Positions 14,095 to 47,100 of a stretch of 64,000 nt of DNA are shown here, in pieces. The stretch is from Planctomycetota bacterium (GTDB lineage: Bacteria; Planctomycetota; Planctomycetia; Gemmatales; Gemmataceae): assembly GCA_003671255.1 (NCBI GenBank), contig QWPF01000001.1, positions 27,479 to 91,478 of the forward strand, read 5' to 3'. Under the pieces are notes generated by a model. It saw nothing but the letters and a program-made list of their open reading frames with translations, was not told the origin of the DNA and did not search any database. Position numbers and translations under genes: made by a program. Each line of letters opens with the position of its first letter. Within the stretch, counting starts at the first letter, position 1.

Positions 14095-14120
14095 TTATAG
14101 TGTGAAACGGACAAGATAAT

Positions 14121-27400: not shown

Positions 27401-28794
27401 ATTGGTTTTAATGAGTTGAGAATCACATGCACTACTATGTCAATTTCCTCGGTTTTAAGGGTTCGTAAATCTAAAACGATTTTGTCCTCTTTTATCCGGG
27501 TAAATAGGGAAGGTTCAGCGGTTCTAAGTTTGTGAGATAAAGATTGTGTATCGAGATTGGGAGCTGAGAAATCGACCACCCAAGTAGGCATTTGCTGATC
27601 TGGTAAAGTTCCGCCTCCTGCAAAACCTTCACTGATTTTAGCTTCAACCTTATCGCACAAGCCGATTTGCTTTAATTTGGTTTCTAATTGAATAGCTTTT
27701 TCGTGTAGTTCATCCATGGAAACAGAGAGCATTTTCAAGGTGGGAATTTTCTGGCTTACCGTGCTTGAATTTAGATGAAGCAATAAGGTTTGTTCGAGTG
27801 CAGCAAGGTTCATTTTGTCGAGTCTGAAAGCTCGCATCAGTGGGTCGCTTTCAATCTTATCAACCCATTCTTTTTTACCTGCGATAATTCCAGCTTGAGG
27901 GCCACCTAAAAGTTTATCTCCACTGAAAAGCGTCAAGTCTGCCCCAAGTGAAATACTTGTAACAGGGTTAGGTTCCTCATCAAAACCCTTGCAATTAAGC
28001 GGTATTACCGCCCCGCTGCCTGCATCGTCAATAACGGGGATGTTGTGCTTTTTTCCAAGCTCAATTAGTTCTTCAATGGTTACGGATTGCGTGAAACCAT
28101 TGATTTTGTAATTGCTGGTATGAACTCTGATTAGGGCGCCTGTGTTTGGCCCAATTGCAGATTCATAATCTTTGATTCGGGTGATATTGGTGGAACCCAC
28201 TTCCCTCATAATGGCGTTGCTGACTTTCATGATTTCTGGAAGTCGGAAGCTCCCGCCTATTTCAATTAATTGGCCCCGGGAAATAATCACTTCTTTATTT
28301 TCAGCAACAGATTTTAAGACGATTATAGTTGCAGCTGCACAATTATTTACAACCGTGGCAGATTGGCACTTAAGTAACTTGCATATCCATTCTCTTACAG
28401 AATCCTGCCTGGAAGATCGCTTTCCTGTTTCGATATCTACTTCAAGATTGATATAGCCAGAGGCAGCCAGGTACGCTGCTTTCGCAGCTTCTTCTGCCAT
28501 AGGTGAACGGCCAAGATTAGTGTGTAAAACAATGCCAGTTGCATTGATAACTTTTCTTAGTTTTGGTTTGAAATGCAAAGTCAATCGATTGCAAACGGCC
28601 AAGCCAATGGATTCGGGTGAGGTATTTAAGGGTGGAGAGTTATCTTTGCTTAATGAGTTTCGAAGTTCATCGAGATAAAGCCTGATTTCTGAAACGACAT
28701 TTTCTTGACCCAGAGTAAGGGTAAGATCATGAATAGCCTTGATTTTAAGGATAACATGAACAGCAGGCAGGCTTCGAAAATTATTATTGGTCAT
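27397..28794 (-). CDS. selA: L-seryl-tRNA(Sec) selenium transferase
   Basis: [23 protein letters not shown]-lysine context [15 protein letters not shown]. Start overlaps the selB stop by 11 nt. Confidence 0.9.
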
Positions 28795-30742
28795 GTTCTA
28801 AGTTTTCTTGAGGGGTTTTTAACTGCTTTAAGGGAGGGTACCTAAGGTCGCCTTCCCTTCTAGTTGTTCCGATCTTATCGAGATGTTCGCAGAAAGGCAC
28901 TGCATATTTTCGCGAAGTTTTTAACAAATCTCTTATTTCCGCAACAGTCAAACCTTTGCCATTTTCAAGTGCGTTTGAAACTAAGCAACGCATTTCTTGT
29001 TCAACATCGTAGTCAAGGTATAAGTCGTCTTGCAAGCAGACTAATTTTCCCTCTTGAACGCTAAGGTTAAAGAGTTCTTGCAGTTGGATTTTCTGCCCTC
29101 CAAGGTGATTGATGAAATCTTCCATGGGTGGAGGTGCAAACTTTGCCTCGCGATAAGTTGAGTGGATTTTCTCGAGAAGTTTTCTTTGGTTGTTTGATAA
29201 CTTAGGTTTGAAAGCTGTTAACCCAATTCGCCTTTTGTTGCCAGTGAGGATTTTTTGTGCAATCATCTGGTCAATCAAATCCTGAACTAGTGCATCATCA
29301 GCGACATAGGCTAATTCGCTGGTAACGCGCTGGCGTTCGTGTGTTGATATCAATGGGTTTTCTGCGTGGAGAGATTCTAGGATAGTGGTTGTTTTGGTTT
29401 TTAAATCAATGATCAATTGATTATCGATTATTTTTTTTCTTCCTGTCGAGGTGTTGATTTCAAAAAGTGCTCCATCTTCCAAACCTAGTTTTAATTGCTC
29501 GTTGATTGCACTTGGATCAATACCAGTGAAAAGAGGCAATGATTCTTCATTGATTCCTTTGAAACCTGCAAACCAAGCTGCAGCTTTTAGCTTTAATACA
29601 TCTACCCCTGAAGCAAGATCGTTAAGCATTTGAATAGAGTGAGAATGCCTTCTGCGGATTTTACCTGCAGTTGGCTGGATAACATTTCCTCCGCCAAGGG
29701 TTGCGGTTGCTGAACTATTTCGGATTACAAAAGGTTGGCCCCAAGAAGCGGTTATGGGTTCTTTTAAAAACAATTGCGCAAGGCCTGGTTTCCCAGGTGC
29801 AATTGCATCGTCTTCCAATATGGATAAGGTTCCTAGAATTTCGGAAGTTCCTAGATGAAGCCTGACGGGTAATCGATGCTTCAAGGGTTTTTTTCTTTCT
29901 TTTGCGCAGTGCAAAACGACTGAAATTATTTTAGCAGGGAACAAATACCCAGGCGTTGCAAGTTCCTGACCCCTTACTACTTCATGGTGATCGATTCCAG
30001 CCAAATTGATGGCACAGCGCTGCCCCTCGGAAGATTGTTTGATATTTTTTGCGTGAGATTGCAAAGATCGAACCCGTACAGTTTTTCTATCCGGGAAAAG
30101 CTCTAATTCGTCGCCCTCACTTACTTTACCCGTATATACAGTCCCGGTTACAACCGCTCCATAGCCGTGAACTGCAAATGACCTATCAATGGGCAATCGA
30201 AAAAAGTGCTGTTCTTTTTTTGCTTCAATACCTGCGCAAATCTCTGTGATTTTGGTTTTAAGTTCAGCAATACCTTTGCCAGTGGTTGCTGAGGTTTGAA
30301 TAATTGGGGCATTTTCAAATGCTGACCCCTCGAGTAATTCGCGGATTTCCATTTCCACGACTTCGAGTGTATCGGAATCCCCAAGGTCGCATTTGGTTAA
30401 AGCTACAAGTCCATGTTTGATCTTTAAGAATTTAAGTATTTCAAGATGTTCTCTTGTTTGTGGCATAACTGAATCATCGGCTGCAACAATTAAAAGGGCG
30501 ATATCAAAACCAGTGGCACCAGCCAGCATGTTCTTGATGAATTTTTCATGACCTGGAACATCAATAATTCCAATTCGATAGCCCGGAAGATCAAGATTTG
30601 CAAAGCCCAGATCAATGGTGATACCCCGCGCTTTTTCTTCTGGTAATCGATCGCAATCAATTCCAGTAAGTGCCTTTACAAGGCTGGTTTTGCCATGATC
30701 AATATGGCCCGCAGTTCCTAGTATCAGATCTCTCTTTAGCAT
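28784..30742 (-). CDS. selB: Selenocysteine-specific translation elongation factor
   Basis: [48 protein letters not shown]. Long C-terminal winged-helix region typical of SelB. Confidence 0.9.
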
Positions 30743-35614: not shown

Positions 35615-38600
35615 TTAAGGATTCACATTTGGCGGAGCTTTGTAGCCAGTCTGGTAGAACTCTTCTTCTTCCTGAATGATAATCCTAGGTGTTACCATGA
35701 TCAGTAAGCTTTCAGCTTCTCGACCATAGGAAGTGTTTCTGAAAAGCCTATTGAGGTAAGGAATCTTGCTAAGAATCGGAGGTCCGTATTCATTTCTAGA
35801 TTCGGATAGCCGTTTGATACCACCCATAAGCACCGTGCCACCATCTGGAACTGATACCGTGGTTTGTACTGCAATCGTATTGATAACAGGCTGCTGAATG
35901 TACTGGGTGAAGGTAACTGGATCACCAGGGTTTGTGGAAAGAGCACTGGAACTAGGGAAAATAGGAACCACAACAGGGAAAAGTGATACAGGTCCAGGTA
36001 CAAGGTTTGTTAAGGTGACAGGAATATTTAGCCTTACTGTTCTGCGATCTGCAGAGATAAGAGGTTGCACATTCATGTAAACACCGAATGGGAACGCTTG
36101 AACCGTCGGGGCAAAAGCGATATTACCATTAACAAGTGTTGACACATTTACACCCGTTACAAAGAACTGGTTTTCAGCAACAATAATGTTTGCGTTTTGA
36201 CCGTTAAACATAGTTAATTTCGGGGCTTGCATAACATTGGTTCTACGATCACCTTGAACTGCTTCCATGAATAGAAAGACTTGAATATCGCTTAGAAACG
36301 CCAAACCCATCGCAAGACCACCAGCGCCAGGCAATCCTGGGTATCCACCGAAAGAGGGCATTGCTAGCGGATAAGATGATTGTTTGATCGGGATATCAAG
36401 GTCGCTGGTGAAATTACCAGAGGGCGTGATACCGGCTATCATACGATCAAAGTTTGGATCGTTGATGTAACCTGAGGGCTTGTACTGTCCGGATTGAATC
36501 TGTGGTTCAAACCGTTGAGTGTTTTTGTCTGTCTTGATGTTAAGGTTAAAGTCTACACCAATTCGTTCGTAAAAATCTTCAGCGATACTGATGAAGCGTA
36601 TTTCAACTGCAACTTCCTGATCTTGCAATCTCCTTAGCGCGGTAAGAAGGTCTGCAACTTGTTCCTGAATGTCAGGTGATTGATTTATAACTAGGGCCAT
36701 GGTCAATGGGAAATATTCTATGGTTCCGGGTCCGCCCATGTTGTTCCATGCCTGGGGAGAAATGGTGCTGGTTAATAATTTAATCAGCATTTCTTCCATG
36801 GTCTGGCTGTTTTTCTTGCTCGTTGAAACATTCCCATTGGTTGCTGTGCCAGATGGTGTGCCTGTTGGCGTGCCCCCAGTCATGCTGTTGGAGTTCATCA
36901 ATGGACTGGTAGCATTGGTGCTATTGGCCGGTTGTTGGTTAGCAGAAATCCCGAGGATTGGTGAAAGAGAGTTCGTAAGCAAAGGGTTGACATAGTTTTC
37001 AACAGGGATCACCAAGTCTGCAACTTGATAAGTTACAGTCTGAAGTTTGCCCCTTGCGTGCGATTCAGTTGTTATCTGAAGAACTTCATCTTTAATCACA
37101 TAGGTCAAATGCGCGCTGTGCAACAAAAGATTTAATGCGCTCTTAAGCGATACCTGCTCCAGTTTAAGGCTTACCGGCCTGTCGAGGCTGATTCCTTCTT
37201 GTTCCAATGCTGGCATATCAGGCACAATGTTAATCCCGTAAAAACTTCGTAGGTCTTCAATTGCATCCTTTAGAAGAATGTTGTTGAAATTTAGATTAAC
37301 CGGCATGCTTAGCTTACTTTCAATTTCTTTTTCTTTGTCACTCTTCCTTGTGGTGCTGGTGATGGAAGTGAGGTTTTTGCGTTTGTTACGGCGATCAGCC
37401 ATTTCTGGATTCGTATCAAGTGGCTTGTCCATTTCTAGAGCTGGCCCTACTTTATCCGTGGCATTAAGCCCATCCAAGAAGAAGGTTTCTTTTTCAGATT
37501 TAAGCTTCTTGGCAACATTGATGTTTCTTTGGGTCTTTGCCATGCTCATACCAGCAGCAGCCATTGCGTTATCTGGATCTAATTCATGTGCCCTCATGGC
37601 ATAGCTTTCAGCTTCCAGATATTTGCCTTCTTTGAAATTCTGATTGAATTGTTTCATCAGATCCGCAACTTTCTTTTGTTTGTTATCATCAGCAAGCTGT
37701 TTCTGCCCGATTGCATTGATCTTGTCTTTCTGCCCACCATCCTTGGCAAGCATTTCTTTTTGGGCTTTCATAAGCTTGAAATGTTGGAGTCTTGATTCGA
37801 CAGGTCTTCGTAAAAAAGCCATTTTGCCTGGATCAAGATCGTTGCTGTTCAGTTCGTTTAAGTATTCTGTAAGCATCTCGATCCCAGCTTCGGTTTGACC
37901 AGCTTGGAATTTTTCCATTGCTTCGCGCTGAAGATCCAAACCTTGTTGCCTCATTTGGCCGAATTTAACTTCGCGAAGTTGATTGGTAGCTTCAAGAAGA
38001 TCTATTTCCCCTTCTTCTTTAGGCTTTGCTGTAGCGTTTACATTATTGGTAGGGGCTGGTTTTGTGCGAATATCAGTTGTACCCTTGACTAAAGACAGCG
38101 CGCTCTTTTCCTTGGGTTGCATTTCTGCAGTCATTAATATTTCTTTTAACTTCTGCTGGCGATCCTTATCAAGGTTCTTTTCTGTCAATGTTGAAATCAT
38201 TGTCTTTGATTGTTCATAATCTTTGCGATTGTATGCAGATAAAGCTGCATCAAAGGTACGCCTGGTTTCAAGCATTTTTTGATTTACATCTTCAATATCA
38301 ATGCTGCGAAGCACCGATGCTGCTTCTTCTTTGACTCCATAAGTTCCCTGATAGGCTTCAACTGCAAGTTTTCTTGCAGCAACCAATTGGCCACTTCGAA
38401 GCTCCAAACGGGATTTCTCCAGCAAAGCCTTGCCTTGGTTTGATTCTGCCATGGATTCGCTTGCAATAATCGCACTTCCAGGAACCTTGGTTTTAACTAA
38501 TCCTAGTTGAACTTTTTTTGATTCAATGCTTGCAGTGTCTTGCCCAAACGATTTTGAAAGATTGATTGCACTTTCAAGAGCTTGGTTTGCAGCCTCAGTT

Positions 38601-40960
38601 TTCTTTTCAACACTTTCGCTGCTATTCATGCTGCGAGTTGCCTGGGTGACAAGATCGTCGATTTGATTTCTTGCACTTGAACCTAATTGCAATAATAACT
38701 GTTCAGGGCTGTCTTCATTGGGTTCAAAAATTACCCCTTGCTTCTGAGCTTCGATGCCTTTCAGACGGGCAGCCACCAAATTGCCTGCCAATTGAAGTTG
38801 GCGCCCCTCTTTCAACATTGCAACGGTTTTTTCTTTGTCATTTCCGGATGTTGGTGGGGTTGGTGGAAACACGGGTGCAACAACTACCGCTGGGGTTATT
38901 ACGGGTGCAACAACTGCCGCTGGAGTAATTACGGGTAATGGTATTTTGGTTTCTGCGGGCGTGCCCTTGTCTGCAACTGTTTTAGATCGATTTTTTTCGA
39001 TATCTTTTAATATTGTGTCAGGGGTATCGCCTGCCAAGTTTTCAGATTTTACTTTCATTCCCTTTACCATGAAGGCAAGGGCGGCAGCTTTCTCTGGGTT
39101 ACCTGATTCAAGCGCGGTTCGAGCTTCTTTTAGGCTTGCTTGTGCCTTGGCTACCATTGCAGAATCATTGGCGTTTGCTTCGTCTTTGGGCGTATCTTTC
39201 TTCGCAATAAATCCATTCTTTTTTGATTTAAGTTTCGATGTTTCGATTTCAGCAATTAATCGTTGTGGACGATCTGATGTTTCCCAAACATTGTAGGGGC
39301 CGTGTAATTGTTGAGCCCTATACGCAGCTTTGGTGGCAGCTTCATAATCTTCTTGTTCAAATAGCTTTCTAGCTTCTAACAATACTTTGACAGATTCTTC
39401 TTTGTCTTTTTTTGCTTGTAATTTTTCGATTTCTGCTCGAAGTTTATCGGGTGAATCTTCGAATAAGCCCCATTTTGCACCAGGGGATGCCTTGGCACGG
39501 AGCATCAACCGTGTTGCTTCATCAGTTTTGTTTTCTGCCAACATCTTACGACCCCTGCGCAATAATTGCCTTGGGTCTTCTGTTTCTTTGGGCGCATCCT
39601 TGCCCGCCTGTTCTGTCAATGTTTTTCCTTCTGAACGAAGGATGTCGCTTTGTACTCTTTCTGGATTATCTTCCCACCAATTTAAAGTTGGTTTCATGGC
39701 TTTGGCTTGTTCGTTCAGCTTTTTCGCTTTTTCTGGGTTCGCTTCTGTTAAAGCTTTTCTAGCATCACGAATAAGATTTCTTGCGGCTTCGGTGTTCCCT
39801 GTTGTTACTTCTGTTTTCACTGGTTGGGAGGTGCCGGTGGAATTTTCTACAGTTAATACTGGTATGGCCTTTGGAGCAATGACTGGTTCTGGTTTTACTG
39901 CATTTTCTTTTGCTAAAGTTTTTGCATCTAATGCTGCAGCATCTACTTTAAGTTTGGCTCCTTGAATTTCTTTTAAAAGCTTCGAAGGAGAGTCGCTTGA
40001 AAGTGCAAATGTCCAGGTGTATGCTGATTTTTCTGCTGCTTTTGCAAGTGATTCTGCTCGGTCAAATTCTTTATTCGTAAAGTTTTTACGAGCTAATCCC
40101 AGCAGCGCTTTTGGATCTTGCTTTAATTTTTGAAGTTCCAACTTTAACTTCGCTTGAGTATCAGCTTCGGGTACCCCTGTAGTTGCCACTTCAGTTATCA
40201 TACCTTCAGCTTTTTCTAAGTCTCCCAGCGCTATTGCAGCACGCACTTGATCTGCGGTTATGGTTGATGTTGCGGTTTCTGTAGTCTTGATTGATGGTAT
40301 TGATTTTGGTTCGGAAAGTTTAAGCTCTTTTGGTTCAATTTGGATGTCAGTTTTGGATGCTATATCCTTGCTCTTGATGCTTTCTTGAAGATTCTTGAAT
40401 CGAAGTTTATCTGATTCGCGAAGATATTGTTCATCAAAAGCAATCTTTTTGGTCAAATCATTTGCAGCAGAAAATTGTTTCTTTCCGACAAGATCTTCTG
40501 CAATATCCAAGGTTGAAGCTGATTCTATACGAGCTTTTAAAGCTTTTTTGTTGGCTTCATACAACTTCTTAAAATCATCTGCTTCCGCTGGAAGTAAATC
40601 TTTCTGACGAGATTCGACTTCCTTGAATGATTTGTCTGCTTCTTCGTAATCGCCCCTGCGGTGAGTTTCGATTGCTTGGTTTAATGCAATGCTTGCTTTA
40701 TTTGGAATTCCTGGGGTTAACCAAGTAATTGCTGGAAGGATGCTGGTAACAACTGCAGCTTGTGCAATTGTTGGGGCCCCTAGCATTATCAAACTTAAGG
40801 ATGAAGCAAAACCTAGTTTTGCAAACCATGAAGAGTTAGAAATGGTTTTCTCCTTGCGAGATATAGTCATGATTTTACCTAAATTAAGATTCGAACAAGA
40901 AGGTGCTTTTGAATCAGAAATCACATTGTTTACTAAGCTGTTTGATTCATTAATATTCAT
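35615..40960 (-). CDS. Giant (1781 aa) secretin-family outer membrane protein with a long repetitive helical N-terminal region
   Basis: C-terminal secretin domain (VAVEIRFISIAEDFYERIGVDFN, QAPKLTMFNGQNANI, VSVPDGGTVLMGGI, IPYLNRLF, LLIMVTPRII). N0/STN-like domain at residues ~1218-1300. N-terminal hydrophobic signal/anchor. Residues ~285-890 hold at least 7 related ~50-aa modules. Confidence 0.85.
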   Translation of the reverse strand: MNINESNSLVNNVISDSKAPSCSNLNLGKIMTISRKEKTISNSSWFAKLGFASSLSLIMLGAPTIAQAAVVTSILPAITWLTPGIPNKASIALNQAIETHRRGDYEEADKSFKEVESRQKDLLPAEADDFKKLYEANKKALKARIESASTLDIAEDLVGKKQFSAANDLTKKIAFDEQYLRESDKLRFKNLQESIKSKDIASKTDIQIEPKELKLSEPKSIPSIKTTETATSTITADQVRAAIALGDLEKAEGMITEVATTGVPEADTQAKLKLELQKLKQDPKALLGLARKNFTNKEFDRAESLAKAAEKSAYTWTFALSSDSPSKLLKEIQGAKLKVDAAALDAKTLAKENAVKPEPVIAPKAIPVLTVENSTGTSQPVKTEVTTGNTEAARNLIRDARKALTEANPEKAKKLNEQAKAMKPTLNWWEDNPERVQSDILRSEGKTLTEQAGKDAPKETEDPRQLLRRGRKMLAENKTDEATRLMLRAKASPGAKWGLFEDSPDKLRAEIEKLQAKKDKEESVKVLLEARKLFEQEDYEAATKAAYRAQQLHGPYNVWETSDRPQRLIAEIETSKLKSKKNGFIAKKDTPKDEANANDSAMVAKAQASLKEARTALESGNPEKAAALAFMVKGMKVKSENLAGDTPDTILKDIEKNRSKTVADKGTPAETKIPLPVITPAAVVAPVITPAVVVAPVFPPTPPTSGNDKEKTVAMLKEGRQLQLAGNLVAARLKGIEAQKQGVIFEPNEDSPEQLLLQLGSSARNQIDDLVTQATRSMNSSESVEKKTEAANQALESAINLSKSFGQDTASIESKKVQLGLVKTKVPGSAIIASESMAESNQGKALLEKSRLELRSGQLVAARKLAVEAYQGTYGVKEEAASVLRSIDIEDVNQKMLETRRTFDAALSAYNRKDYEQSKTMISTLTEKNLDKDRQQKLKEILMTAEMQPKEKSALSLVKGTTDIRTKPAPTNNVNATAKPKEEGEIDLLEATNQLREVKFGQMRQQGLDLQREAMEKFQAGQTEAGIEMLTEYLNELNSNDLDPGKMAFLRRPVESRLQHFKLMKAQKEMLAKDGGQKDKINAIGQKQLADDNKQKKVADLMKQFNQNFKEGKYLEAESYAMRAHELDPDNAMAAAGMSMAKTQRNINVAKKLKSEKETFFLDGLNATDKVGPALEMDKPLDTNPEMADRRNKRKNLTSITSTTRKSDKEKEIESKLSMPVNLNFNNILLKDAIEDLRSFYGINIVPDMPALEQEGISLDRPVSLKLEQVSLKSALNLLLHSAHLTYVIKDEVLQITTESHARGKLQTVTYQVADLVIPVENYVNPLLTNSLSPILGISANQQPANSTNATSPLMNSNSMTGGTPTGTPSGTATNGNVSTSKKNSQTMEEMLIKLLTSTISPQAWNNMGGPGTIEYFPLTMALVINQSPDIQEQVADLLTALRRLQDQEVAVEIRFISIAEDFYERIGVDFNLNIKTDKNTQRFEPQIQSGQYKPSGYINDPNFDRMIAGITPSGNFTSDLDIPIKQSSYPLAMPSFGGYPGLPGAGGLAMGLAFLSDIQVFLFMEAVQGDRRTNVMQAPKLTMFNGQNANIIVAENQFFVTGVNVSTLVNGNIAFAPTVQAFPFGVYMNVQPLISADRRTVRLNIPVTLTNLVPGPVSLFPVVVPIFPSSSALSTNPGDPVTFTQYIQQPVINTIAVQTTVSVPDGGTVLMGGIKRLSESRNEYGPPILSKIPYLNRLFRNTSYGREAESLLIMVTPRIIIQEEEEFYQTGYKAPPNVNP
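38871..38936 (-). repeat. 30-nt tandem direct repeat (2.2 copies) inside the secretin gene
   Basis: ACGGGTGCAACAACTACCGCTGGGGTTATT / ACGGGTGCAACAACTGCCGCTGGAGTAATT / ACGGGT. There are 3 mismatches between the two full copies. Encodes PVITPAAVVA-PVITPAVVVA. Confidence 0.9.
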
Positions 40961-41183: not shown

Positions 41184-44100
41184 CTAGAAAGGTTGATTTA
41201 CACCAAACCAGAATTGTGTTCCCGTGCCTTGATTTATGGCTTGTGCAGCATCAAACCGAAGCAGCATTTTTTCTACAAAACTCATGAACGATACATCGCA
41301 GCGAATTCCCACTCCTACTCCTTGCGCTATCGAACCAAGAGCTTGGCTATTCACATAAGTGTTACCTACATCGTAAAAGAGTGCCAAATAAGTGTTTTTT
41401 AGTGAAAACAGATGGTCGACAGCGTCAACAGAGGTGTTTCGGGAAACTGGGAAGCGCAGTTCCGCACTGCCCACCCAAACTGAATTTCCTTGCCTTTGTG
41501 CAAGGTCAAAGGCACGAAACATTTCACCGCCCCCCATGGTGAAAAATTGTCCATAGGAAGGAACCGAGGTGCCACCGAATGCTCGCACTGCTAATCGTGT
41601 GTCTGCAATCCAGTTGGCAGTTTTATTTAAGAGAGGTTTTTCACCGGGCAAATAATCAAGCAAGCCAGATAGATTAGGTAAGTAGTGGACGGTTGAAGCT
41701 TGTGCCCATACTTTCTGTACGGTTGCATATTCATTTAAAAGGGCTTGTCCAGCTTCATAAACCGCATCAAATTGGTAACCACCTTCGGGATCCCAATAAG
41801 GAGTTAGGTAATTAATGCGATAATGAAGGCCCCCCGTGGTCATGTGCTGAAAGCGTTGAGCACCTGGGGCAGTTTGAACTGGATCTGGAAGGAAGTTGTC
41901 GTGGAAAGAGCCAAATACATCGATAAACTTTGAAGGAAGAAGATAAAGACTTGGGTGTTCCATAAATACATATCTACCAAATACTGAAGCACGCGTCGCC
42001 TCATTGTTCCCTTCATAGAAAGTATAAAAACGCCTTTCTGCATTAAAACCGAATTGAAATGGAGAATCGGGCCAGTGGGTGAAAAGGCCATCAATACCCG
42101 CAATAAAATCACGATAATCGGTTCGATATGCTGTATAAAGGCCCCCTGAAAATTCCTGCGATCTATATGCGCCCGCTCGCAAACCTACCATGGTTGCCCT
42201 GCTATACCAGACATCATCGTAACTTTTCATGTAAAGCCATGGACCAAAATTAAAATTCCAGCGGTCGTAGGAATTGGTAAGGGATGTTTCATCAACAAAA
42301 GTGTACAAAGGCGTTAATCGAAATCTTGGGCTGTGATGCCAGTAGTTATTCGAAGGGTTTTTATCAACAATTACAGAATCTGGATCGATTGCAATTTGAT
42401 TTGGTATATCTGGTAAGTCCACGGTTACCCTGATTGTGTCCGGGGAAAGATTCTCAACCGTTGCAGGAGGGTCATCAATTCCATAATTTCCCCCAGCGGG
42501 TAAGATTGGTATTCGAATCGAATATTCTTCTGACTTTCCCATGGCAAACCCCAGATAGGTTTGTTCACTGTATTCCGCATTTTGCTTAATAATAATAGTG
42601 ACGGTGGTTTTTTGATTTTTGGGGTTTGCGGAAGAGCGAAGAGATAGGGGCAAAATTTTTCGAGCCAATGGGGCATCATTTATTTTCACGGATTCCAGAT
42701 TCCAATCAGTCAAACCTGAACCCTTAAGCCACTTTTCAAAGAAATCCTCCCACGATTTTCCAGTTTGTGCTTCGAGTTCTTTTTGGAAATCGCTTACATG
42801 CATCACCTTGTATTCGTATTTTTTTCGTACACTGCGCATTACATCAAGAAATGCTTGTTCGCCTATTCTAGATTCAATCATTTCAACAATCTTTGCACCC
42901 TTGTCGTAACACATACTAAATAGCGTTACCACATGCCCGAATTTGTCCATGGGTTGAAGTATGGAAGTATTATCCCCCCTGCCAACCGAACCATAAAAGC
43001 CGTTCATTCTGTAATCTTCACGCTTTATATTGGGCAGCCATTTTAACGAATCAGGGTATTCAAGCAGTTCGTTATTTTTGCCCCGGGTTTGATTCAAAAA
43101 ACGATGGCTGAAGTAGGTTGCGAGGGCTTCATCCATCCAAGTTTCCCGATAACCATCCGTACCCACAAGGTTGTACCACCATTGATGACAAACTTCATGG
43201 CTTATTAGGTATTCTGCGTAACGCTTAGCAAAGTGAGGCATGGAGAAAATGCGCTCATCAATCATTACCAGCGAACCACATTCGTTCCCGTTCCAGCCAA
43301 AATAGGATTCAACAATGGTGAATTCAGGGTATGGGTATGGGCCAAACCAATGGCTGTAAGTGACCATGCATTCACAGACAATTCTTAAGAATTCCTTGGC
43401 AAAAAACTCATGTTCTTCGAACGCTTGAATTTTTACTTTAAGTGGTGTTTCTCTGCCTGGGAGTTTTATTTCGGTTTCAAGAATCTTGAACCTTGTTGAG
43501 CAAAGAAAAGCGAAGTCCCTTGTACCTTTTGCTTCAAGTCGCACTTTCTTTCTTCCATCTGGTAACTTTTCTTCCCCAACAATTACCCCGGTGCTGGCAA
43601 TTTGCTGATCACTGTCTAATGTTGCGGTGACATCATAAATGCCTGCTTCATTATAAAAGGGTTGGTGCCAGGGTACGAAAGGCGTTGGTTTCCAACCTTG
43701 TTCAGTATCGTTAGGGGTTTCCGCATGCCAATCATGTTTGTGATAAGCGAAAATCGGTAGCCAGTTGGTGAGGAAAGTTACATTTTTCCAATGCCCCCAC
43801 CTGCCTTGCTTTTCAGGTAAGCGCATTCTAAATTCGAGGTCAAAGGTGACTTTTTCGCCTTTGGCTAATGGTTGGTCTAAGTCAAATTCTAATGTTGTTT
43901 TCGTAGGGCCTGTAAATTGATGCTTTAATTTCTGAACGCTTCCGTCTTTATTCAAAATCCCCACTGTTTTTATTTCGAGACAGGGAGTTTTTGCCCCGAG
44001 CGAATCTCCGGGATTTAGCCTTAATAGTTCAAGTGTTTTTGCCATTAATGCTATGTCGCTATCGGGCACAATATAATTCGAATGTGTTACGAATACGATT

Positions 44101-44288
44101 TTGCTTACCGGGCTATCCGAGCGATTGGTCCAAGTTGCTTTTTGGTGCACCTCAACCGTATGCTTGCTCGTATCAAGATTCATTTGAATTTGGTATGCAG
44201 GCAAACCCTCAGGCAACTCGCATTTTCCAACGGAGGGAAATGCAAGCAGTGTGCAAAAACCAAATATCAAGCAGGTCAATTTTCTCAA
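41184..44288 (-). CDS. Secreted M1-family zinc metallopeptidase fused to a C-terminal Omp85/BamA-like beta-barrel domain
   Basis: Signal peptide. HEVCH (43185-43199) plus E 19 residues after the second His (WMDEALA), the HExxH-x18-E spacing of M1 peptidases. C-terminal ~380 aa carry GGGEMFRAFD, SAELRFPV, YDVGNTY and end in FWFGVNQPF. Confidence 0.8.
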   Translation of the reverse strand: MRKLTCLIFGFCTLLAFPSVGKCELPEGLPAYQIQMNLDTSKHTVEVHQKATWTNRSDSPVSKIVFVTHSNYIVPDSDIALMAKTLELLRLNPGDSLGAKTPCLEIKTVGILNKDGSVQKLKHQFTGPTKTTLEFDLDQPLAKGEKVTFDLEFRMRLPEKQGRWGHWKNVTFLTNWLPIFAYHKHDWHAETPNDTEQGWKPTPFVPWHQPFYNEAGIYDVTATLDSDQQIASTGVIVGEEKLPDGRKKVRLEAKGTRDFAFLCSTRFKILETEIKLPGRETPLKVKIQAFEEHEFFAKEFLRIVCECMVTYSHWFGPYPYPEFTIVESYFGWNGNECGSLVMIDERIFSMPHFAKRYAEYLISHEVCHQWWYNLVGTDGYRETWMDEALATYFSHRFLNQTRGKNNELLEYPDSLKWLPNIKREDYRMNGFYGSVGRGDNTSILQPMDKFGHVVTLFSMCYDKGAKIVEMIESRIGEQAFLDVMRSVRKKYEYKVMHVSDFQKELEAQTGKSWEDFFEKWLKGSGLTDWNLESVKINDAPLARKILPLSLRSSANPKNQKTTVTIIIKQNAEYSEQTYLGFAMGKSEEYSIRIPILPAGGNYGIDDPPATVENLSPDTIRVTVDLPDIPNQIAIDPDSVIVDKNPSNNYWHHSPRFRLTPLYTFVDETSLTNSYDRWNFNFGPWLYMKSYDDVWYSRATMVGLRAGAYRSQEFSGGLYTAYRTDYRDFIAGIDGLFTHWPDSPFQFGFNAERRFYTFYEGNNEATRASVFGRYVFMEHPSLYLLPSKFIDVFGSFHDNFLPDPVQTAPGAQRFQHMTTGGLHYRINYLTPYWDPEGGYQFDAVYEAGQALLNEYATVQKVWAQASTVHYLPNLSGLLDYLPGEKPLLNKTANWIADTRLAVRAFGGTSVPSYGQFFTMGGGEMFRAFDLAQRQGNSVWVGSAELRFPVSRNTSVDAVDHLFSLKNTYLALFYDVGNTYVNSQALGSIAQGVGVGIRCDVSFMSFVEKMLLRFDAAQAINQGTGTQFWFGVNQPF

Positions 44289-44423: not shown

Positions 44424-44460
44424 AAATAAAAAAGGCTCGCTTCAAAATTGAAGCGAGCCT
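44424..44460 (-). terminator. Strong intrinsic terminator downstream of the DUF1549/DUF1553 gene
   Basis: 12-bp perfect stem AGGCTCGCTTCA / TGAAGCGAGCCT, 4-nt loop. On the minus strand it is followed by TTTTTTATTT. Confidence 0.8.
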
Positions 44461-44478
44461 TTTAAAGTAATAAATAAA

Positions 44479-47007
44479 TTACTGGTTGAACATGAATTCC
44501 TTCGTGTTCAGAAGTGCCCAGATAATGTTTTCGTAGGCTAGTTTCTTGTTCATCGTGTGTTTAGTCAGATGGCCAAGAGCAGATTCCTTTTGCTGCGGAG
44601 TAGGCTTTCTAGAGAAAGCCCAAAGGAAAATGTCATCAATTTTCTCTGCATCAGGGCGAGGATCTTTGGCTATGGCATCAGCCCGCCCATTTGGTCTCGC
44701 CAGCTTATTTTGGATTTCATCGGAATTAAGCAGATGCAAAGCTTGGGCAAGGTTTGCTTCGCTAACCCTTTCGCATTCGCAAGCGCTAATGCGTTGAGGT
44801 CTTCCAAAGACATCCAAGAAGTAAGAGGTGTAGCCTTCATCGGGAAGCATGATGGCGCGTTTTGGTGCAAGTTGGTCGGTAGGTAGGCCTCCAAAACCAG
44901 CTGGACTGTCAGTAATCAAACAAACAGCATCAAAAAGAACCTCGGCACTTAACCTTTTGGGGTAATAGCGTGCATAATTTTGCTTATCCTGTTTGTTAAA
45001 ATCATTAGGAACTGCGCTTAACTGATAAGTTCTTGAGTTAACAATGGACCGTATCAATTGCTTTAAACTAAAGCCATTTTTCACCAAATCGCCTGCAAGC
45101 GCATCAAGTAATTCTGGGTTACTTGGTGGGTTGGTGACACGCATATCATCCAAGGGGTCAACAATACCTCTGGAAAAGAAATGGGCCCAATAACGATTAG
45201 CAATTGCTTTGGGGAAAAACTGATTTTTCCCATCAACCATCCAATCCACGAGTTTTACACGGGGATCATCATCTTCTTCCATAACCATGGCTTTTTCACC
45301 CAAGGCTTTGTAATCTGCAACTTTGCCTGAGCGCTTGTTGGTAACGGAGCCAGTTTTTGTGGTGTAAACAACAAGTTTTTGATTGGCATTATTGTTAGAA
45401 GCCTGGCCTGGGATAGCCAATTTCTTTCGGCCTATCTTGCCAAAGAAGGAAGCCATGCCCCAATAATCATCTTGGCTCCATTTTTCGTATGGATGATGAT
45501 GGCATTGAGCGCAAGCCATTCTGAGGCCAAGAAAAACCTGTGATGTATCATCAACATATTGCTCAGGGTTAGTTAGGCTTTTGTACCAATAGGTTGGAGG
45601 CGTTTCAGATTCATCACCTGTTGCGGTAAGAATTTCGCGTGCGAACTGATCGTAGGGCATATCAGACTTGATTGCATCACGAATCCAGCCATGGAAAGCA
45701 AAAGTGCCTTTCATGTTTTCGGCTTGCCCGCCCCGCTTAACGCGAAGGATGTCGGCCCATTTAGCAGCGAAATAATAGGAGTATTCTGAGGAATTGAGCA
45801 TTTTTTCGACTAAATCTTTGCGCTTGTTGGGGCTCGTGCTGTCAACAAATGCTTTGACTTGAACTGGGGTAGGAATGGTTCCGGAAAGATCCAATGACAA
45901 TCTTCGAATAAACTGTTCATCGGAGCATAATTCGGAGGGGGCCAAACCTAGCTGCTTCCATTTTGCACTCGTGAATTTATCTACGAAAGTGTTGTTTTCG
46001 AAGGCAAATTCTCGTGGTTTTTCAGAAAGTGGTACCGTTGCCCTGAATATATTTACAAATTCTTGGTAGCGAACCATGATTGCGGCTTCGCCAGCCATTG
46101 AATTTGTCCGAACAAGCGCATTGCTGTCTACGGTTGCTATATCTTGTTCGTTTGATTCGTATTGGGCTCTGCGGGTAACATCTTCGGTTGTCCCATCGGT
46201 GTAATGGGCAGTAACGATGAATTGTTGTTTTGCATTTCTGGGCATAATCCTGTTTTCAGGATAGATGGTGATTTTGGTAACCACGGCATCCGTGGGATTG
46301 CCATAAGGTACGCCAGCTGCGACCCAACGACGAACCAAGCGGTATTCATCAGATCCGACTTCCATTTTCTTGCCGCCACCGTGAGGCACTATTCCGACTG
46401 ATTTGGTTAAAAGAAGGCTGTTGTCCGGCGATGCAGGAAATACTCTTCTGCCGCGGCTTTCTTGTACCAACGAGATAAAATCCAAATCCGGATCGAATCC
46501 GAGCAAAGATAACTTGAAATTATTCTGGCCACTTGCTTTTCCATGGCAACCACCTGAGTTGCAACTCAGTTTGGTGAAAATAGGCACAATTTGATTGGCA
46601 AAATTAATCGGTAGGTTGATGTCGCAATCAGATGTCTTAGCAACGACTTGAAGCTTTTTAGTGCCGAATGAAACATTGATTGACGAGCTACCGTTGGAAA
46701 GAGGGACAACTCTTCCCGAAGGGGTTACGCGTAATGTTTTAGAATCTGCTGCTTCGTATTGGCTTACGGAGGTAAGATCCAGAAGCATACCAGATTTAGT
46801 CGTACCCGTGATAACCATTTGAATGGCATCATCTAAGCCGCGCAATTTAACTTCAGTTGGGAAAACTTCGATTTTTGTAAATTCGGTTTCCGCAGGCAGC
46901 ACAAACTCTTCAACAGGTTTAGTGCTTACTTTATCATTTGCATGCGAATAACTCGAGCATGCTAAAACTACAGCAAAAAAACTAAAAGTCTTTATATTTA
47001 AAGACAT
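44479..47007 (-). CDS. Secreted DUF1549/DUF1553 (PSD1-type) protein with Ig-like N-terminal domains and cytochrome-like Cys motifs
   Basis: ATG at 47007 follows AGGAG. Signal peptide MSLNIKTFSFFAVVLACSSYSHA. CNSGGCHG and CAQCHHHPYEKW motifs. This is the typical planctomycete family architecture. Confidence 0.85.
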   Translation of the reverse strand: MSLNIKTFSFFAVVLACSSYSHANDKVSTKPVEEFVLPAETEFTKIEVFPTEVKLRGLDDAIQMVITGTTKSGMLLDLTSVSQYEAADSKTLRVTPSGRVVPLSNGSSSINVSFGTKKLQVVAKTSDCDINLPINFANQIVPIFTKLSCNSGGCHGKASGQNNFKLSLLGFDPDLDFISLVQESRGRRVFPASPDNSLLLTKSVGIVPHGGGKKMEVGSDEYRLVRRWVAAGVPYGNPTDAVVTKITIYPENRIMPRNAKQQFIVTAHYTDGTTEDVTRRAQYESNEQDIATVDSNALVRTNSMAGEAAIMVRYQEFVNIFRATVPLSEKPREFAFENNTFVDKFTSAKWKQLGLAPSELCSDEQFIRRLSLDLSGTIPTPVQVKAFVDSTSPNKRKDLVEKMLNSSEYSYYFAAKWADILRVKRGGQAENMKGTFAFHGWIRDAIKSDMPYDQFAREILTATGDESETPPTYWYKSLTNPEQYVDDTSQVFLGLRMACAQCHHHPYEKWSQDDYWGMASFFGKIGRKKLAIPGQASNNNANQKLVVYTTKTGSVTNKRSGKVADYKALGEKAMVMEEDDDPRVKLVDWMVDGKNQFFPKAIANRYWAHFFSRGIVDPLDDMRVTNPPSNPELLDALAGDLVKNGFSLKQLIRSIVNSRTYQLSAVPNDFNKQDKQNYARYYPKRLSAEVLFDAVCLITDSPAGFGGLPTDQLAPKRAIMLPDEGYTSYFLDVFGRPQRISACECERVSEANLAQALHLLNSDEIQNKLARPNGRADAIAKDPRPDAEKIDDIFLWAFSRKPTPQQKESALGHLTKHTMNKKLAYENIIWALLNTKEFMFNQ

Positions 47008-47100
47008 GGATCGATCTCCTGATAATCCATGGAAGGGTTCCAATACCACGCAGTAATAACATTGTGAACGATTTTTTTGAAATATGCAACAAATTAATCG

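What the first reader, a model, noticed from the sequence alone, without database searches (positions are those of the whole stretch)
41184..44288. M1 zinc aminopeptidase fused to an Omp85/BamA-type outer-membrane barrel (possible type Vd-like autotransporter with a peptidase passenger)
One uninterrupted 1034-aa ORF carries three parts.
(i) A Sec signal peptide.
(ii) What looks like a complete M1 gluzincin peptidase at residues ~30-650. HEVCH lies at 43185-43199, and the third zinc ligand Glu (WMDEALA) sits at the canonical HExxH-x18-E spacing. The exopeptidase GxMEN box is divergent (GWNGNECG).
(iii) A ~380-aa C-terminal region with Omp85 hallmarks: GGGEMFRAFD where loop 6 of Omp85 proteins carries (V/I)RG(F/Y), SAELRFPV, alternating amphipathic strands, and a terminal FWFGVNQPF ending in Phe.

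I see no POTRA-like repeat between the two parts. The enzyme-Omp85 fusions I know of are the patatin-like type Vd autotransporters (PlpD/FplA). A zinc aminopeptidase on such a barrel is not an architecture I know to be described. It would place a peptidase at the cell surface or release it there.
Basis: partly seen in the sequence, partly recalled or inferred. Interest (0 to 1): 0.8.

Follow-up and report, generated by a model that had tools for sequence, protein, structure and literature searches.

The report
Zinc aminopeptidase fused to Omp85 barrel

Summary
ORF 41184-44288 (-) encodes 1034 aa in this order:
- a Sec signal peptide;
- M1 peptidase domains I-III (residues 30-634), with H364/E365/H368/E387/Y461 invariant in 119 homologues and the GxMEN Glu kept as NGNEC;
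- a highly conserved 42-aa linker;
- a 16-stranded Omp85-superfamily barrel (677-1031).

Evidence for the barrel:
- The top 50 Foldseek PDB hits are all TamA, BamA, Sam50 or Toc75.
- The L6 R(G/A)F motif and the beta13 FxDxG lid-lock motif are conserved.
- Distant M1-Omp85 relatives pass Pfam's Omp85 threshold.

There is no POTRA domain, no TolB-like propeller and no M1 domain IV. The fusion occurs in at least 565 species-level genomes, mostly Gemmatales, including cultured Limnoglobus roseus PX52. It has no conserved operon partner.

The "type Vd autotransporter / surface peptidase" reading is not supported. Type Vd needs a patatin passenger and a POTRA domain, both absent here. The prototype PlpD has also been shown to keep its enzyme domain in the periplasm.

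My best reading is a periplasm-facing, outer-membrane-anchored aminopeptidase. Orientation and substrate are inferred, not shown.

It is not wholly unprecedented. The 2014 Omp85 survey lists M1-like Phyre2 hits for its "WD40-like" subfamily in a supplementary table. I rate this a new, uncharacterised variant of the enzyme-Omp85 fusions.

The parts
41184..44288 (-). Whole gene: 1034-aa M1 peptidase-Omp85 fusion protein (stop codon 41184-41186)
   Evidence: ORF list. The listed homologues of 46-94% identity are almost all full length. AF2 model: pLDDT 88.4, pTM 0.87.
44226..44288 (-). Sec-type signal peptide, residues 1-21 (MRKLTCLIFGFCTLLAFPSVG). No lipobox.
   Evidence: Read from the sequence: basic N-terminus, hydrophobic core, small residues before K22. 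AF2 pLDDT is below 50 for 1-5 and 14-21. The cleavage site is inferred, not computed.
43419..44201 (-). M1 domain I (N-terminal beta domain), residues ~30-290
   Evidence: AF2 secondary structure is all beta. Foldseek aligns about 650-690 columns of the model to ERAP1/ERAP2/IRAP/APN, E down to 4.6e-24.
42714..43418 (-). M1 catalytic (thermolysin-like) domain, residues 291-525
   Evidence: Pfam Peptidase_M1 E=3.4e-20. The family profile hits PDB M1 enzymes, best glutamyl aminopeptidase at E=1.1e-13.
43278..43292 (-). GxMEN-equivalent exopeptidase motif N333-G-N-E-C337. E336 is the putative substrate alpha-amine ligand.
   Evidence: Profile alignment 'fgWnGnEc' against 'fgtGAMENw' of 4kx7. E336 is E in 112 and Q in 7 of 119; C337 is C in 118 of 119.
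43185..43199 (-). HExxH zinc-binding/catalytic motif H364-E-V-C-H368
   Evidence: H364, E365 and H368 are invariant in 119 sequences. C367 is conserved in 117 of 119 and co-occurs with C337 in 116 of 119; a disulfide between them is inferred only.
43128..43130 (-). E387, third zinc ligand (HExxH-x18-E)
   Evidence: Invariant in 119 of 119. The spacing is read from the sequence.
42906..42908 (-). Y461, catalytic Tyr that stabilises the transition state (cYDKG)
   Evidence: Invariant. It aligns with the 'isYsKG' Tyr of 4kx7 and PSA.
42387..42704 (-). Beta-sandwich domain, residues 529-634, equivalent to M1 domain III. It is not a POTRA domain.
   Evidence: AF2 gives eight strands and no helices. 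The segment is included in the Foldseek alignment to ERAP/IRAP. It is the least conserved domain, mean top-residue frequency 0.54.
42261..42386 (-). Conserved linker, residues 635-676 (DPD..D..P.NN.W....R..P.Y...E...T..YDR)
   Evidence: Mean top-residue frequency 0.81, with 11 invariant positions. pLDDT is about 81-94 (10-residue block means) in the full model but below 50 when the barrel is modelled alone, so the M1 part stabilises it. The DPx..D..NN.(W)P...P.Y pattern recurs in the distant subfamily.
41187..42260 (-). 16-stranded Omp85-superfamily beta-barrel, residues 677-1034
   Evidence: 16 long strands in both AF2 models. The top 50 Foldseek PDB hits are all TamA/BamA/Sam50/Toc75, best E=3.3e-8, probability 1.0. 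Pfam Omp85 scores 23.5 bits for the query, matches 8 of 12 diverse members, and scores 49-59 bits in distant M1-Omp85 relatives.
41484..41561 (-). Loop 6 (residues 910-935) between strands 11 and 12, carrying FFxxGGxxxR(G/A)F
   Evidence: R925 is invariant; 926 is G in 108 and A in 11; 927 is F or Y. It aligns with TamA 'FFaGGdqsvRGyd'.
41364..41378 (-). Strand-13 'lid-lock' motif F971-Y-D973-V-G975 (FxDxG)
   Evidence: D973 and G975 are invariant; F971 and Y972 are at least 90% conserved. The motif definition comes from PMC11358297.
41778..41810 (-). Periplasmic turn T4, residues 827-837 (YLTPYWDPEGG). It is the most conserved element of the barrel half and a candidate docking surface for the M1 module.
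   Evidence: Mean top-residue frequency 0.94. The P..DP..G core recurs in the distant subfamily. Its periplasmic position follows from the strand count and is an inference.
41187..41213 (-). C-terminal beta-signal-like strand FWFGVNQPF, ending in Phe
   Evidence: Residue 1034 is F in 117 and Y in 2 of 119; P1033 is invariant; G1029 is at least 90% conserved.
44430..44463 (-). Terminator-like hairpin (15-bp stem plus T-run) between the upstream PSCyt2/PSD1 gene and this gene. It suggests the gene has its own transcription start.
   Evidence: Consensus scan and the sequence itself. This is a pattern match only.

Best explanation
This is a genuine, vertically conserved single-polypeptide fusion. 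After Sec export, the C-terminal 16-stranded Omp85-type barrel is inserted into the outer membrane. It anchors an N-terminal M1-family zinc aminopeptidase (domains I-III). The barrel takes the position in the chain that helical domain IV occupies in ordinary M1 enzymes.

By Omp85 topology and by analogy with PlpD, the peptidase module sits on the periplasmic face. It would be docked under the barrel through the conserved 42-aa linker and the conserved periplasmic turns. There it would remove N-terminal residues from peptides in the planctomycetal periplasm. The barrel would stay closed (L6 and strand-13 lid-lock intact) and serve mainly as anchor and scaffold.

Shown: the architecture, the fold, intact catalytic residues, the absence of POTRA, and the distribution.
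Inferred: periplasmic orientation, docking, aminopeptidase (rather than endopeptidase) activity, and physiological substrate.
For: Architecture:
- Pfam M1 at E=3.4e-20 and Omp85 at E=4.6e-5.
- AF2 pLDDT 88.4 and pTM 0.87, with 16 barrel strands.
- Foldseek matches the M1 half to ERAP/IRAP at E about 1e-23.
- Foldseek matches the barrel half to TamA/BamA/Sam50/Toc75 in all top 50 hits.

Catalytic competence:
- H364, E365, H368, E387 and Y461 are invariant in 119 sequences, and the GAMEN Glu is retained.

Omp85 hallmarks:
- L6 R925-(G/A)-F and strand-13 FYDVG are conserved.
- The protein ends in Phe.

Orientation:
- L6 falls between strands 11 and 12, and FxDxG lies in the outer half of strand 13. 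Strand 1 therefore starts from the periplasm.
- The most conserved non-strand elements are the linker and periplasmic turns T3, T4 and T7 (0.81-0.94). Outer loops L3, L5 and L8 score 0.39-0.53.
- The linker is confidently modelled only when the M1 half is present.
- The enzyme domain of PlpD was experimentally shown to be periplasmic (PMC11116518).

Export to an oxidising compartment:
- There is a signal peptide.
- A co-conserved Cys pair, C337/C367, flanks the active site.

Stand-alone function:
- No neighbour gene is conserved across 82 loci.
- A terminator-like hairpin lies upstream.

A separate BamA is reported in all planctomycete genomes examined by Speth et al. 2012 (PMC3422733), so this protein is a paralogue and not the essential insertase.
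Against: - No coordinates or PAE of the model could be inspected. I did not see directly which face of the barrel the M1 module occupies in the model, or whether its cleft faces the barrel.
- Conservation of periplasmic turns is only indirect evidence.
- The GxMEN box is strongly modified (NGNEC), so exopeptidase specificity is uncertain.
- M1 domain IV, which normally closes the substrate cavity, is missing.
- A plain membrane anchor would not obviously need retained lid-lock motifs, a Gly-containing last strand and such strong barrel conservation. These features hint that the barrel does more than anchor.
- There is no experimental datum for any member of the family.
Confidence: 0.6

Rival explanations
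1. Type V-like self-export. The Omp85 barrel translocates the N-terminal M1 domain, so the peptidase is displayed on or released from the cell surface to digest external peptides.
For: - The N-terminal enzyme plus C-terminal barrel order resembles autotransporters.
- An aminopeptidase passenger exists in the classical P. aeruginosa autotransporter AaaA (PMC3426542).
- The conserved 42-aa linker could in principle span a barrel lumen.
- Planctomycetes live on polymers and peptides.
Against: - There is no POTRA and no patatin domain, so the type Vd definition is not met.
- The type Vd prototype PlpD keeps its enzyme domain in the periplasm, and FplA was not detected on the surface (PMC11116518).
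- The L6 and strand-13 lid-lock motifs that close BamA/TamA-type barrels are intact.
- The linker has no long helix of the kind that fills autotransporter barrels.
- Extracellular loops are the least conserved parts.
Confidence: 0.15
2. Outer-membrane-protein quality control, analogous to BepA. The Omp85 barrel engages stalled or misfolded beta-barrel substrates, or the BAM complex. The tethered M1 peptidase degrades them from their N-termini.
For: - The barrel keeps insertase-like features: lid-lock motifs, a conserved Gly in the last strand, and an invariant G-P-W in strand 1.
- Heinz & Lithgow proposed periplasmic proteolytic quality control for their 'Metallo'-Omp85 proteins (PMC4104836).
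- The gene sits next to a giant secretin gene in this clade and in three more distant loci.
- BepA, an M48 protease associated with BAM, is a precedent (from my own knowledge).
Against: - Aminopeptidases trim peptides rather than unfold and degrade proteins.
- There is no POTRA domain to receive substrates.
- Linkage to envelope-biogenesis genes is not conserved in most of the 82 loci.
Confidence: 0.12
3. Coupled pore-enzyme. The barrel is a peptide conduit across the outer membrane, and the M1 module at its periplasmic mouth trims incoming peptides, with the barrel replacing domain IV as the lid of the catalytic chamber.
For: - The barrel occupies the chain position of M1 domain IV, which normally caps the active site.
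- pTM of 0.87 indicates a fixed inter-domain arrangement.
- The periplasmic turns and the linker are highly conserved.
Against: - Omp85 barrels with intact L6 and strand-13 lock motifs are closed in known structures (as described in PMC11358297, and PMC4104836).
- The geometry could not be checked because no model coordinates are available.
Confidence: 0.08
4. A catalytically dead M1 fold used only as a binding or structural module, or the fusion is an assembly or frameshift artefact.
For: The GxMEN box is non-canonical. Pfam Omp85 for this sequence alone is 0.5 bit below threshold.
Against: - All zinc ligands, the catalytic Glu and the catalytic Tyr are invariant in 119 homologues.
- The uninterrupted fusion recurs in at least 565 genomes, including a complete genome of a cultured strain.
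Confidence: 0.03

Closest known systems
Patatin-like Omp85 proteins PlpD/FplA ('type Vd')
   Same: - N-terminal hydrolytic enzyme domain fused to a C-terminal 16-strand Omp85 barrel.
- Sec signal peptide.
- Stand-alone gene.
- The enzyme domain is probably periplasmic; for PlpD this is shown (PMC11116518).
   Different: - The enzyme here is an M1 zinc peptidase, not a patatin phospholipase.
- There is no POTRA domain between enzyme and barrel.
- Dimerisation was not tested.
- The phylum is different (Planctomycetota).
'WD40-like' Omp85 subfamily of Heinz & Lithgow 2014
   Same: It is an Omp85 barrel with a non-POTRA N-terminal region. Phyre2 matched that region to M1 aminopeptidases (1z5h, 4kxd, 3qnf, 4fgm) at about 99% confidence in Table S3. 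PMC11358297 summarises it as 'divergent WD40 and peptidase domains'.
   Different: - Those proteins carry TolB-like PD40 propeller repeats (PF07676), and none is detectable here.
- The paper's Pfam table lists no PF01433.
- Planctomycetes do not appear in its main text or in the supplementary files that were searched.
- The peptidase is not discussed in the main text.
- I could not fetch those sequences, so homology between the two groups is untested.
'Metallo' Omp85 (PF00149) and 'noNterm' Omp85 subfamilies
   Same: These are POTRA-less Omp85 barrels of unknown function. The same question applies to them: is the fused or absent N-terminal domain periplasmic or surface-exposed (PMC4104836; PMC11358297)?
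   Different: - PF00149 is, from my own knowledge, a calcineurin-like metallophosphoesterase family, although the paper calls it a metalloprotease. It is not a gluzincin peptidase.
- noNterm proteins have no enzyme at all.
Canonical M1 aminopeptidases (PepN, APN, ERAP1/2, IRAP, APA, LTA4H)
   Same: - Domains I-III fold (Foldseek E about 1e-23).
- HExxH-x18-E.
- Catalytic Tyr.
- Glu of the exopeptidase box.
   Different: - The helical domain IV is replaced by a membrane barrel.
- GAMEN is changed to NGNEC.
- A family-specific Cys pair, C337/C367, lies next to the active site.
- The protein is exported and integral to the outer membrane.
BamA/TamA
   Same: - 16-strand barrel.
- L6 RG(F/Y)-type motif.
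- Strand-13 FxDxG.
- C-terminal aromatic residue.
- They are the best structural matches.
   Different: - There are no POTRA domains.
- The sequence is very divergent: the family profile reaches only its own family among 1.84 billion representatives (484 hits), and TamA in the PDB only at E=0.59.
- The periplasmic turns are long and conserved (T4, T5).
AaaA of Pseudomonas aeruginosa (classical type Va autotransporter with aminopeptidase passenger)
   Same: An aminopeptidase joined to a C-terminal outer-membrane barrel (PMC3426542).
   Different: - From my own knowledge, AaaA has a 12-strand type Va barrel and an M28 peptidase, and it is surface displayed.
- The protein here has a 16-strand Omp85 barrel and an M1 peptidase.

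Membership tests
Peptidase family M1 (gluzincin aminopeptidases) | HExxH followed 18 residues later by a Glu (three zinc ligands plus catalytic Glu) | tested here: met
   H364-E-V-C-H368 and E387, all invariant in 119 homologues. Pfam PF01433 scores 73 bits against a cut-off of 27.7.
Peptidase family M1 (gluzincin aminopeptidases) | GxMEN exopeptidase motif | tested here: inconclusive
   The aligned segment is N-G-N-E-C. Only the Glu (E336; E in 112, Q in 7 of 119) matches; Gly, Met and Asn are replaced.
Peptidase family M1 (gluzincin aminopeptidases) | Catalytic Tyr downstream of the zinc site | tested here: met
   Y461 is invariant and aligned with the Tyr of 4kx7 and PSA.
Peptidase family M1 (gluzincin aminopeptidases) | Multi-domain fold: N-terminal beta domain, thermolysin-like domain, beta-sandwich, C-terminal helical domain | tested here: inconclusive
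   Domains I-III are present and superpose on ERAP/IRAP/APN. Helical domain IV is absent and replaced by the barrel.
Peptidase family M1 (gluzincin aminopeptidases) | Zinc-dependent aminopeptidase activity | not testable with these tools
   This needs an enzyme assay.
Omp85/TpsB superfamily | 16-stranded transmembrane beta-barrel | tested here: met
   16 strands in two independent AF2 runs. The Foldseek top 50 are all Omp85 barrels.
Omp85/TpsB superfamily | Loop 6 (V/I/L)RG(F/Y) motif between strands 11 and 12 | tested here: met
   F-R925-A-F in this protein; the family has R invariant, G in 108 of 119 and F/Y in 119 of 119. It aligns with the TamA RGY motif.
Omp85/TpsB superfamily | Strand-13 FxDxG lid-lock partner | tested here: met
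   F971-Y-D973-V-G975, with D and G invariant. The motif is as defined in PMC11358297.
Omp85/TpsB superfamily | Significant match to Pfam PF01103 | tested here: inconclusive
   The query scores 23.5 bits against a gathering score of 24. 8 of 12 diverse family members match at E<=1, best E=2.4e-7. The L. roseus orthologue scores 29.9 bits. Distant M1-Omp85 relatives score 49-59 bits.
Omp85/TpsB superfamily | [quoted passage not shown] | tested here: not met
   No POTRA family (PF07244, PF08479) appears at E<=10. The 529-676 segment is an all-beta sandwich plus a short linker, not beta-alpha-alpha-beta-beta. Recognised subfamilies such as noNterm, Metallo and WD40-like also lack POTRA (PMC4104836).
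Type Vd autotransporters (PlpD/FplA) | Patatin-like lipase passenger | tested here: not met
   There is no PF01734 hit; the N-terminal module is M1.
Type Vd autotransporters (PlpD/FplA) | Single POTRA between passenger and barrel | tested here: not met
Type Vd autotransporters (PlpD/FplA) | Passenger translocated to the cell surface | not testable with these tools
   For the prototype this is now contradicted experimentally (PMC11116518).
WD40-like Omp85 subfamily (Heinz & Lithgow 2014) | TolB-like PD40/WD40 beta-propeller N-terminal to the barrel | tested here: not met
   There is no PF07676 or other propeller hit at E<=10. The N-terminal beta domain superposes on M1 domain I.
WD40-like Omp85 subfamily (Heinz & Lithgow 2014) | Sequence relatedness of the barrel and peptidase-like region to listed members (e.g. 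D0MEQ5, Q2RZZ9, A9FGN9) | not tested
   Those UniProt sequences could not be fetched. None surfaced.

The most novel reading that the evidence does not exclude
The Omp85 barrel is not a passive anchor. It has taken over the role of M1 domain IV, so that an outer-membrane pore or lateral gate and a zinc aminopeptidase form one machine. That machine would perform either import-coupled trimming of peptides crossing the outer membrane, or N-terminal processing or degradation of proteins handled at the barrel seam. This would be a new functional class of Omp85 protein, neither insertase nor translocase, that is general to Gemmatales and also occurs in Omnitrophota-labelled MAGs.
Probability: 0.12. 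Interest if true: 0.8.

Novelty: new variant of a known kind. Interest (0 to 1): 0.55.

Why it matters
Omp85 proteins were long thought to do only two things: insert beta-barrels (BamA, TamA, Sam50) or translocate partners (TpsB, Toc75). PlpD showed that the scaffold can carry a periplasmic enzyme.

The protein here is a second, unrelated enzyme-Omp85 fusion. It lacks POTRA entirely, has an intact M1 active site, and is conserved across an entire order of bacteria with an unusual, enlarged periplasm.

It offers a tractable test case, because enzyme activity gives a read-out and cultured hosts such as Limnoglobus roseus exist. It could show what POTRA-less Omp85 barrels are for and how fused domains are oriented. 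It also identifies a likely outer-membrane-bound peptidase in planctomycetal peptide turnover.

Current annotation ('hypothetical protein' or 'M1 family aminopeptidase') misses the membrane barrel completely.

Tried and rejected
1. POTRA, ShlB or propeller domains between or before the two halves: none in Pfam at E<=10, and none in the AF2 secondary structure.
2. A profile of the barrel against PDB sequences gave only TamA at E=0.59, which is insignificant by sequence alone. The fold comparison was needed.
3. An exhaustive HMM search with the barrel profile returned only 484 hits. All those examined were the same M1-Omp85 family or fragments of it. This gave no bridge to BamA, noNterm or WD40-like groups.
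4. A search with the three distant-subfamily barrels returned five proteins: four fragments, two of which carry source names (BamA/TamA family; BamA), and one weak POTRA-Omp85 hit.
5. I looked for a conserved operon partner. The DUF3467-PSD1-[gene]-secretin-GT87 order holds only in the close clade (at least 62% identity). Secretin lies nearby in just three more distant loci. No neighbour family occurs in more than 10 of 82 loci.
6. Literature searches for an M1-Omp85 description found nothing in main texts. Only Table S3 of Heinz & Lithgow was relevant.
8. Model coordinates are not exposed by the tools. The domain interface, the Cys337-Cys367 distance and the direction of the active-site cleft could not be measured.
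9. Frameshift or artefact fusion was rejected on conservation.

Full report
OBSERVATION

The ORF is real: 41184..44288, minus strand, 1034 aa, TTG start, uninterrupted. HEVCH is residues 364-368 (nt 43185-43199). E387 lies 18 residues after H368. GWNGNECG is 331-338, GGGEMFRAFD is 919-928, SAELRFPV is 941-948, and the protein ends in FWFGVNQPF.

Pfam finds Peptidase_M1 at residues 306-520 (E=3.4e-20, 73 bits). It finds Omp85 PF01103 at residues 888-1033 (E=4.6e-5, 23.5 bits), half a bit under the gathering score of 24. NCBIfam gives only weak PepN, LTA4H and Omp85_fam matches.

The fusion is not an assembly artefact. The 120 best database homologues (46-94% identity) are almost all full-length proteins of about 1000-1100 aa. 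A scan of one genome per species found at least 565 genomes encoding it.

ANATOMY

An AlphaFold2 model built on 119 homologues is confident (mean pLDDT 88.4, pTM 0.87). It shows the following parts.
- A signal peptide, residues 1-21.
- An all-beta domain, about 30-290.
- A helical thermolysin-like domain, 291-525.
- An eight-stranded beta-sandwich, 529-634.
- A short, well-ordered linker, 635-676.
- Sixteen long beta-strands, 677-1031.

Foldseek aligns about 650-690 columns of the model to ERAP1, ERAP2, IRAP and APN (E down to 4.6e-24). The N-terminal 634 residues are therefore M1 domains I, II and III. The helical domain IV of canonical M1 enzymes is missing, and the barrel follows where it would be.

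The C-terminal 395 residues modelled alone (pLDDT 69.7, again 16 strands) hit only Omp85-superfamily barrels in the PDB. These were P. aeruginosa TamA (E=3.3e-8), BamA from several phyla, Sam50 and Toc75, and they fill all top 50 places at probability 1.0.

By sequence the barrel is very divergent.
- A 12-sequence profile reaches only TamA in the PDB, at E=0.59. That alignment does pair FFxxGGxxxRGF with TamA's FFAGGDQSVRGY.
- The same profile finds only 484 proteins among 1.84 billion representatives. All those I examined are the same family.
- The link to Omp85 is nonetheless firm. 8 of 12 diverse members hit PF01103 (best E=2.4e-7).
- The Limnoglobus roseus orthologue scores 29.9 bits.
- A distant subfamily of about 920-950 aa (P0199, P0240, P0253, P0265) carries Peptidase_M1 plus Omp85 at 49-59 bits. 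It is joined to this family at E=1e-19 to 1e-33.

The two lid-lock motifs that mark Omp85 barrels are present and conserved. One is the loop-6 Arg: R925 is invariant, in FRAF here and FRGF in 108 of 119 homologues. The other is the strand-13 FxDxG: F971-Y-D973-V-G975, with D and G invariant (motif definition from PMC11358297). Loop 6 lies between strands 11 and 12, and five strands follow it, exactly as in BamA.

There is no POTRA domain. Pfam finds none at E<=10, and the secondary structure between the catalytic domain and the barrel has no beta-alpha-alpha-beta-beta unit. There is also no propeller.

IS THE PEPTIDASE LIVE?

H364, E365, H368, E387 and Y461 are invariant in all 119 aligned homologues. 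A profile alignment to glutamyl aminopeptidase (4kx7) and puromycin-sensitive aminopeptidase places the family's 'fgWnGnEc' on 'fgtGAMENw', and 'cYDKG' on 'sYsKG'. The exopeptidase box is therefore N333-G-N-E-C337. The Glu that binds the substrate's free amine is kept (E in 112, Q in 7 of 119), while Gly, Met and Asn are replaced.

C337 and C367 (the x3 residue of HExxH) co-occur in 116 of 119 sequences. I infer a disulfide beside the active site, which would fit an exported enzyme, but I could not measure it.

I conclude that the domain is very probably an active zinc peptidase and probably an aminopeptidase. The modified box and the missing domain IV leave its specificity open.

DISTRIBUTION AND CONTEXT

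The top 80 genomic loci are nearly all Gemmataceae or Gemmatales. They include the cultured Limnoglobus roseus PX52 (complete genome) and MAGs named Fimbriiglobus and Zavarzinella. The nearest (93-95% identity) are freshwater-lake MAGs. Some genomes hold two copies, for example OY970367.1 (L054 and L064). One member of the distant subfamily is labelled Candidatus Omnitrophota.

In this window the gene lies between a PSCyt2/PSD1 gene (44479-47049) and a 1781-aa secretin gene (35615-40960), all on the minus strand. That order persists down to 62% identity (L001). It is lost in most loci at 50% identity or below. No neighbouring gene family occurs in more than 10 of 82 loci.

A 15-bp-stem terminator-like hairpin (44463-44430) separates the gene from the upstream gene. 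It therefore looks like a stand-alone function. The window is chromosomal, since DnaA, topoisomerase, SelA and SelB genes are present.

HOW IT MOST LIKELY WORKS

Shown: a Sec-exported protein whose C-terminal half has the fold and signature motifs of a BamA/TamA-type barrel, and whose N-terminal half is an M1 peptidase with an intact catalytic set.

Inferred: orientation. I could not inspect model coordinates, so the argument is indirect.
1. With 16 strands, L6 between strands 11 and 12, and FxDxG in the outer half of strand 13, strand 1 starts from the periplasm. The N-terminal fusion is born on that side.
2. Within the barrel half, the most conserved non-strand elements are the linker (0.81) and the periplasmic turns T4 (YLTPYWDPEGG, 0.94), T3 (0.83) and T7 (0.83). 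Outer loops L3, L5 and L8 score 0.39-0.53. The P..DP..G core of T4 and the DP..D..NN.(W)P...P.Y pattern of the linker recur in the distant subfamily.
3. The linker is confidently modelled only when the M1 half is present.
4. For PlpD, the only enzyme-Omp85 fusion studied experimentally, the enzyme domain is periplasmic and not secreted (PMC11116518).

I therefore favour an outer-membrane-anchored, periplasm-facing aminopeptidase that trims peptides in the planctomycetal periplasm, with confidence about 0.6 for this compound statement.

The rivals are as follows.
- Surface display by self-export, 0.15.
- BepA-like quality control of outer-membrane proteins at the barrel seam, 0.12.
- A coupled pore-enzyme in which the barrel replaces domain IV as the lid of the catalytic chamber, 0.08.
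- A dead enzyme or an artefact, 0.03.

The strong conservation of barrel features beyond what an anchor needs keeps the second and third rivals alive.

COMPARISON WITH WHAT IS KNOWN

The protein is a member of the Omp85 superfamily by fold and motifs, although it lacks POTRA, as do the recognised noNterm, Metallo and WD40-like subfamilies. It is a member of peptidase family M1 by catalytic motifs and by the fold of domains I-III.

It is not a type Vd autotransporter. The patatin passenger and the POTRA domain were both tested and not met, and passenger secretion is contradicted for the prototype.

Heinz & Lithgow's 2014 survey defines ten Omp85/TpsB subfamilies. Peptidase_M1 is not among its Pfam architectures, and Planctomycetes do not appear in its main text or in the supplementary files that were searched. 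However, its Table S3 has a column 'best aminopeptidase hit' for the WD40-like subfamily. That column lists Phyre2 matches at about 99% confidence to M1 enzymes (1z5h, 4kxd, 3qnf, 4fgm) or to collagenase G. PMC11358297 paraphrases this as 'divergent WD40 and peptidase domains'.

A gluzincin-like region on an Omp85 protein has therefore been catalogued before. It was always together with a TolB-like propeller, and it has not been discussed or characterised. Whether the planctomycetal family descends from that group could not be tested here.

Database names for this family are 'hypothetical protein' or 'M1 family aminopeptidase'. Barrel-only fragments are named 'BamA/TamA family'.

VERDICT

This is a real, widespread and uncharacterised variant of the enzyme-Omp85 fusions. 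It is interesting to people who work on outer-membrane biogenesis and on planctomycete cell biology. It is not categorically new, and its mechanism is unproven. Interest 0.55.

Noticed in passing
window 35615-40960 (-): The gene immediately downstream encodes a 1781-aa protein. Its only Pfam match is a Secretin domain in the last ~200 residues (1568-1761, E=1.5e-28). The preceding ~1500 residues are Lys/Glu/Ala-rich with no domain hit. The secretin gene stays adjacent to the M1-Omp85 gene down to 62% identity and lies nearby in three more distant loci (L010, L015, L060).
   Followed up: partly
window 44430-44463 (-): A strong terminator-like hairpin (15-bp stem, 7 G-C pairs, T-run) follows the PSCyt2/PSD1 gene directly and lies about 140 nt upstream of the M1-Omp85 start.
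   Followed up: partly
L006, L008, L060, L067, L081, L068; P0220: MAGs labelled 'Candidatus Kuenenia stuttgartiensis', 'Alcaligenaceae', 'Bacteroidales' and 'Bathyarchaeia archaeon' carry this gene. The Kuenenia-labelled L006 and L008 carry it at 94-95% identity with Gemmataceae synteny; the others are 42-43% identical or belong to the distant subfamily. These labels are probably mis-binned or mislabelled records.
   Followed up: no
L054 and L064 (both OY970367.1); also DATBHJ01 (L019/L053), JAJPIY01 (L016/L050), JAJXWW01 (L020/L056): Several genomes hold two paralogous copies of the M1-Omp85 gene (42-48% identical to the query), so the family has duplicated within Gemmatales.
   Followed up: partly
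M1-Omp85 residues 232, 263, 337, 367, 381, 460 (alignment A1): Most family members have six conserved Cys in the M1 half. This protein has four (C263, C337, C367, C460), with S232 and R381 at the other two positions. Only C337/C367 co-vary tightly. The pairing of the others is unresolved.
   Followed up: partly
L010:9237-10301 (-) and the equivalent in L002, L011, L012, L013, L015, L019, L060, L074: A gene of about 355-377 aa, convergent with the M1-Omp85 gene, recurs just downstream in 9 of the more distant loci. In L002 it carries a weak DDE_Tnp_1 hit. Its function was not examined.
   Followed up: no
P0292 (756 aa): A database protein combines PBP_dimer and transpeptidase domains with a Peptidase_M1 segment that is 70% identical to P0240. 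It is probably a merged gene call.
   Followed up: no
window 27397-30742 (-) and 4717-6162 (+): SelA and SelB (the selenocysteine machinery) lie a few kb away. A DnaA gene and the two type II topoisomerase subunit genes (11725-16043) are also in the window, so this may be near the replication origin.
   Followed up: no
M1-Omp85 residues 870-897: The turn between strands 10 and 11, periplasmic by the strand count, is 28 residues long and contains an 11-residue helix. It is the least conserved long connector (0.48), which is unusual for an Omp85 periplasmic turn.
   Followed up: no
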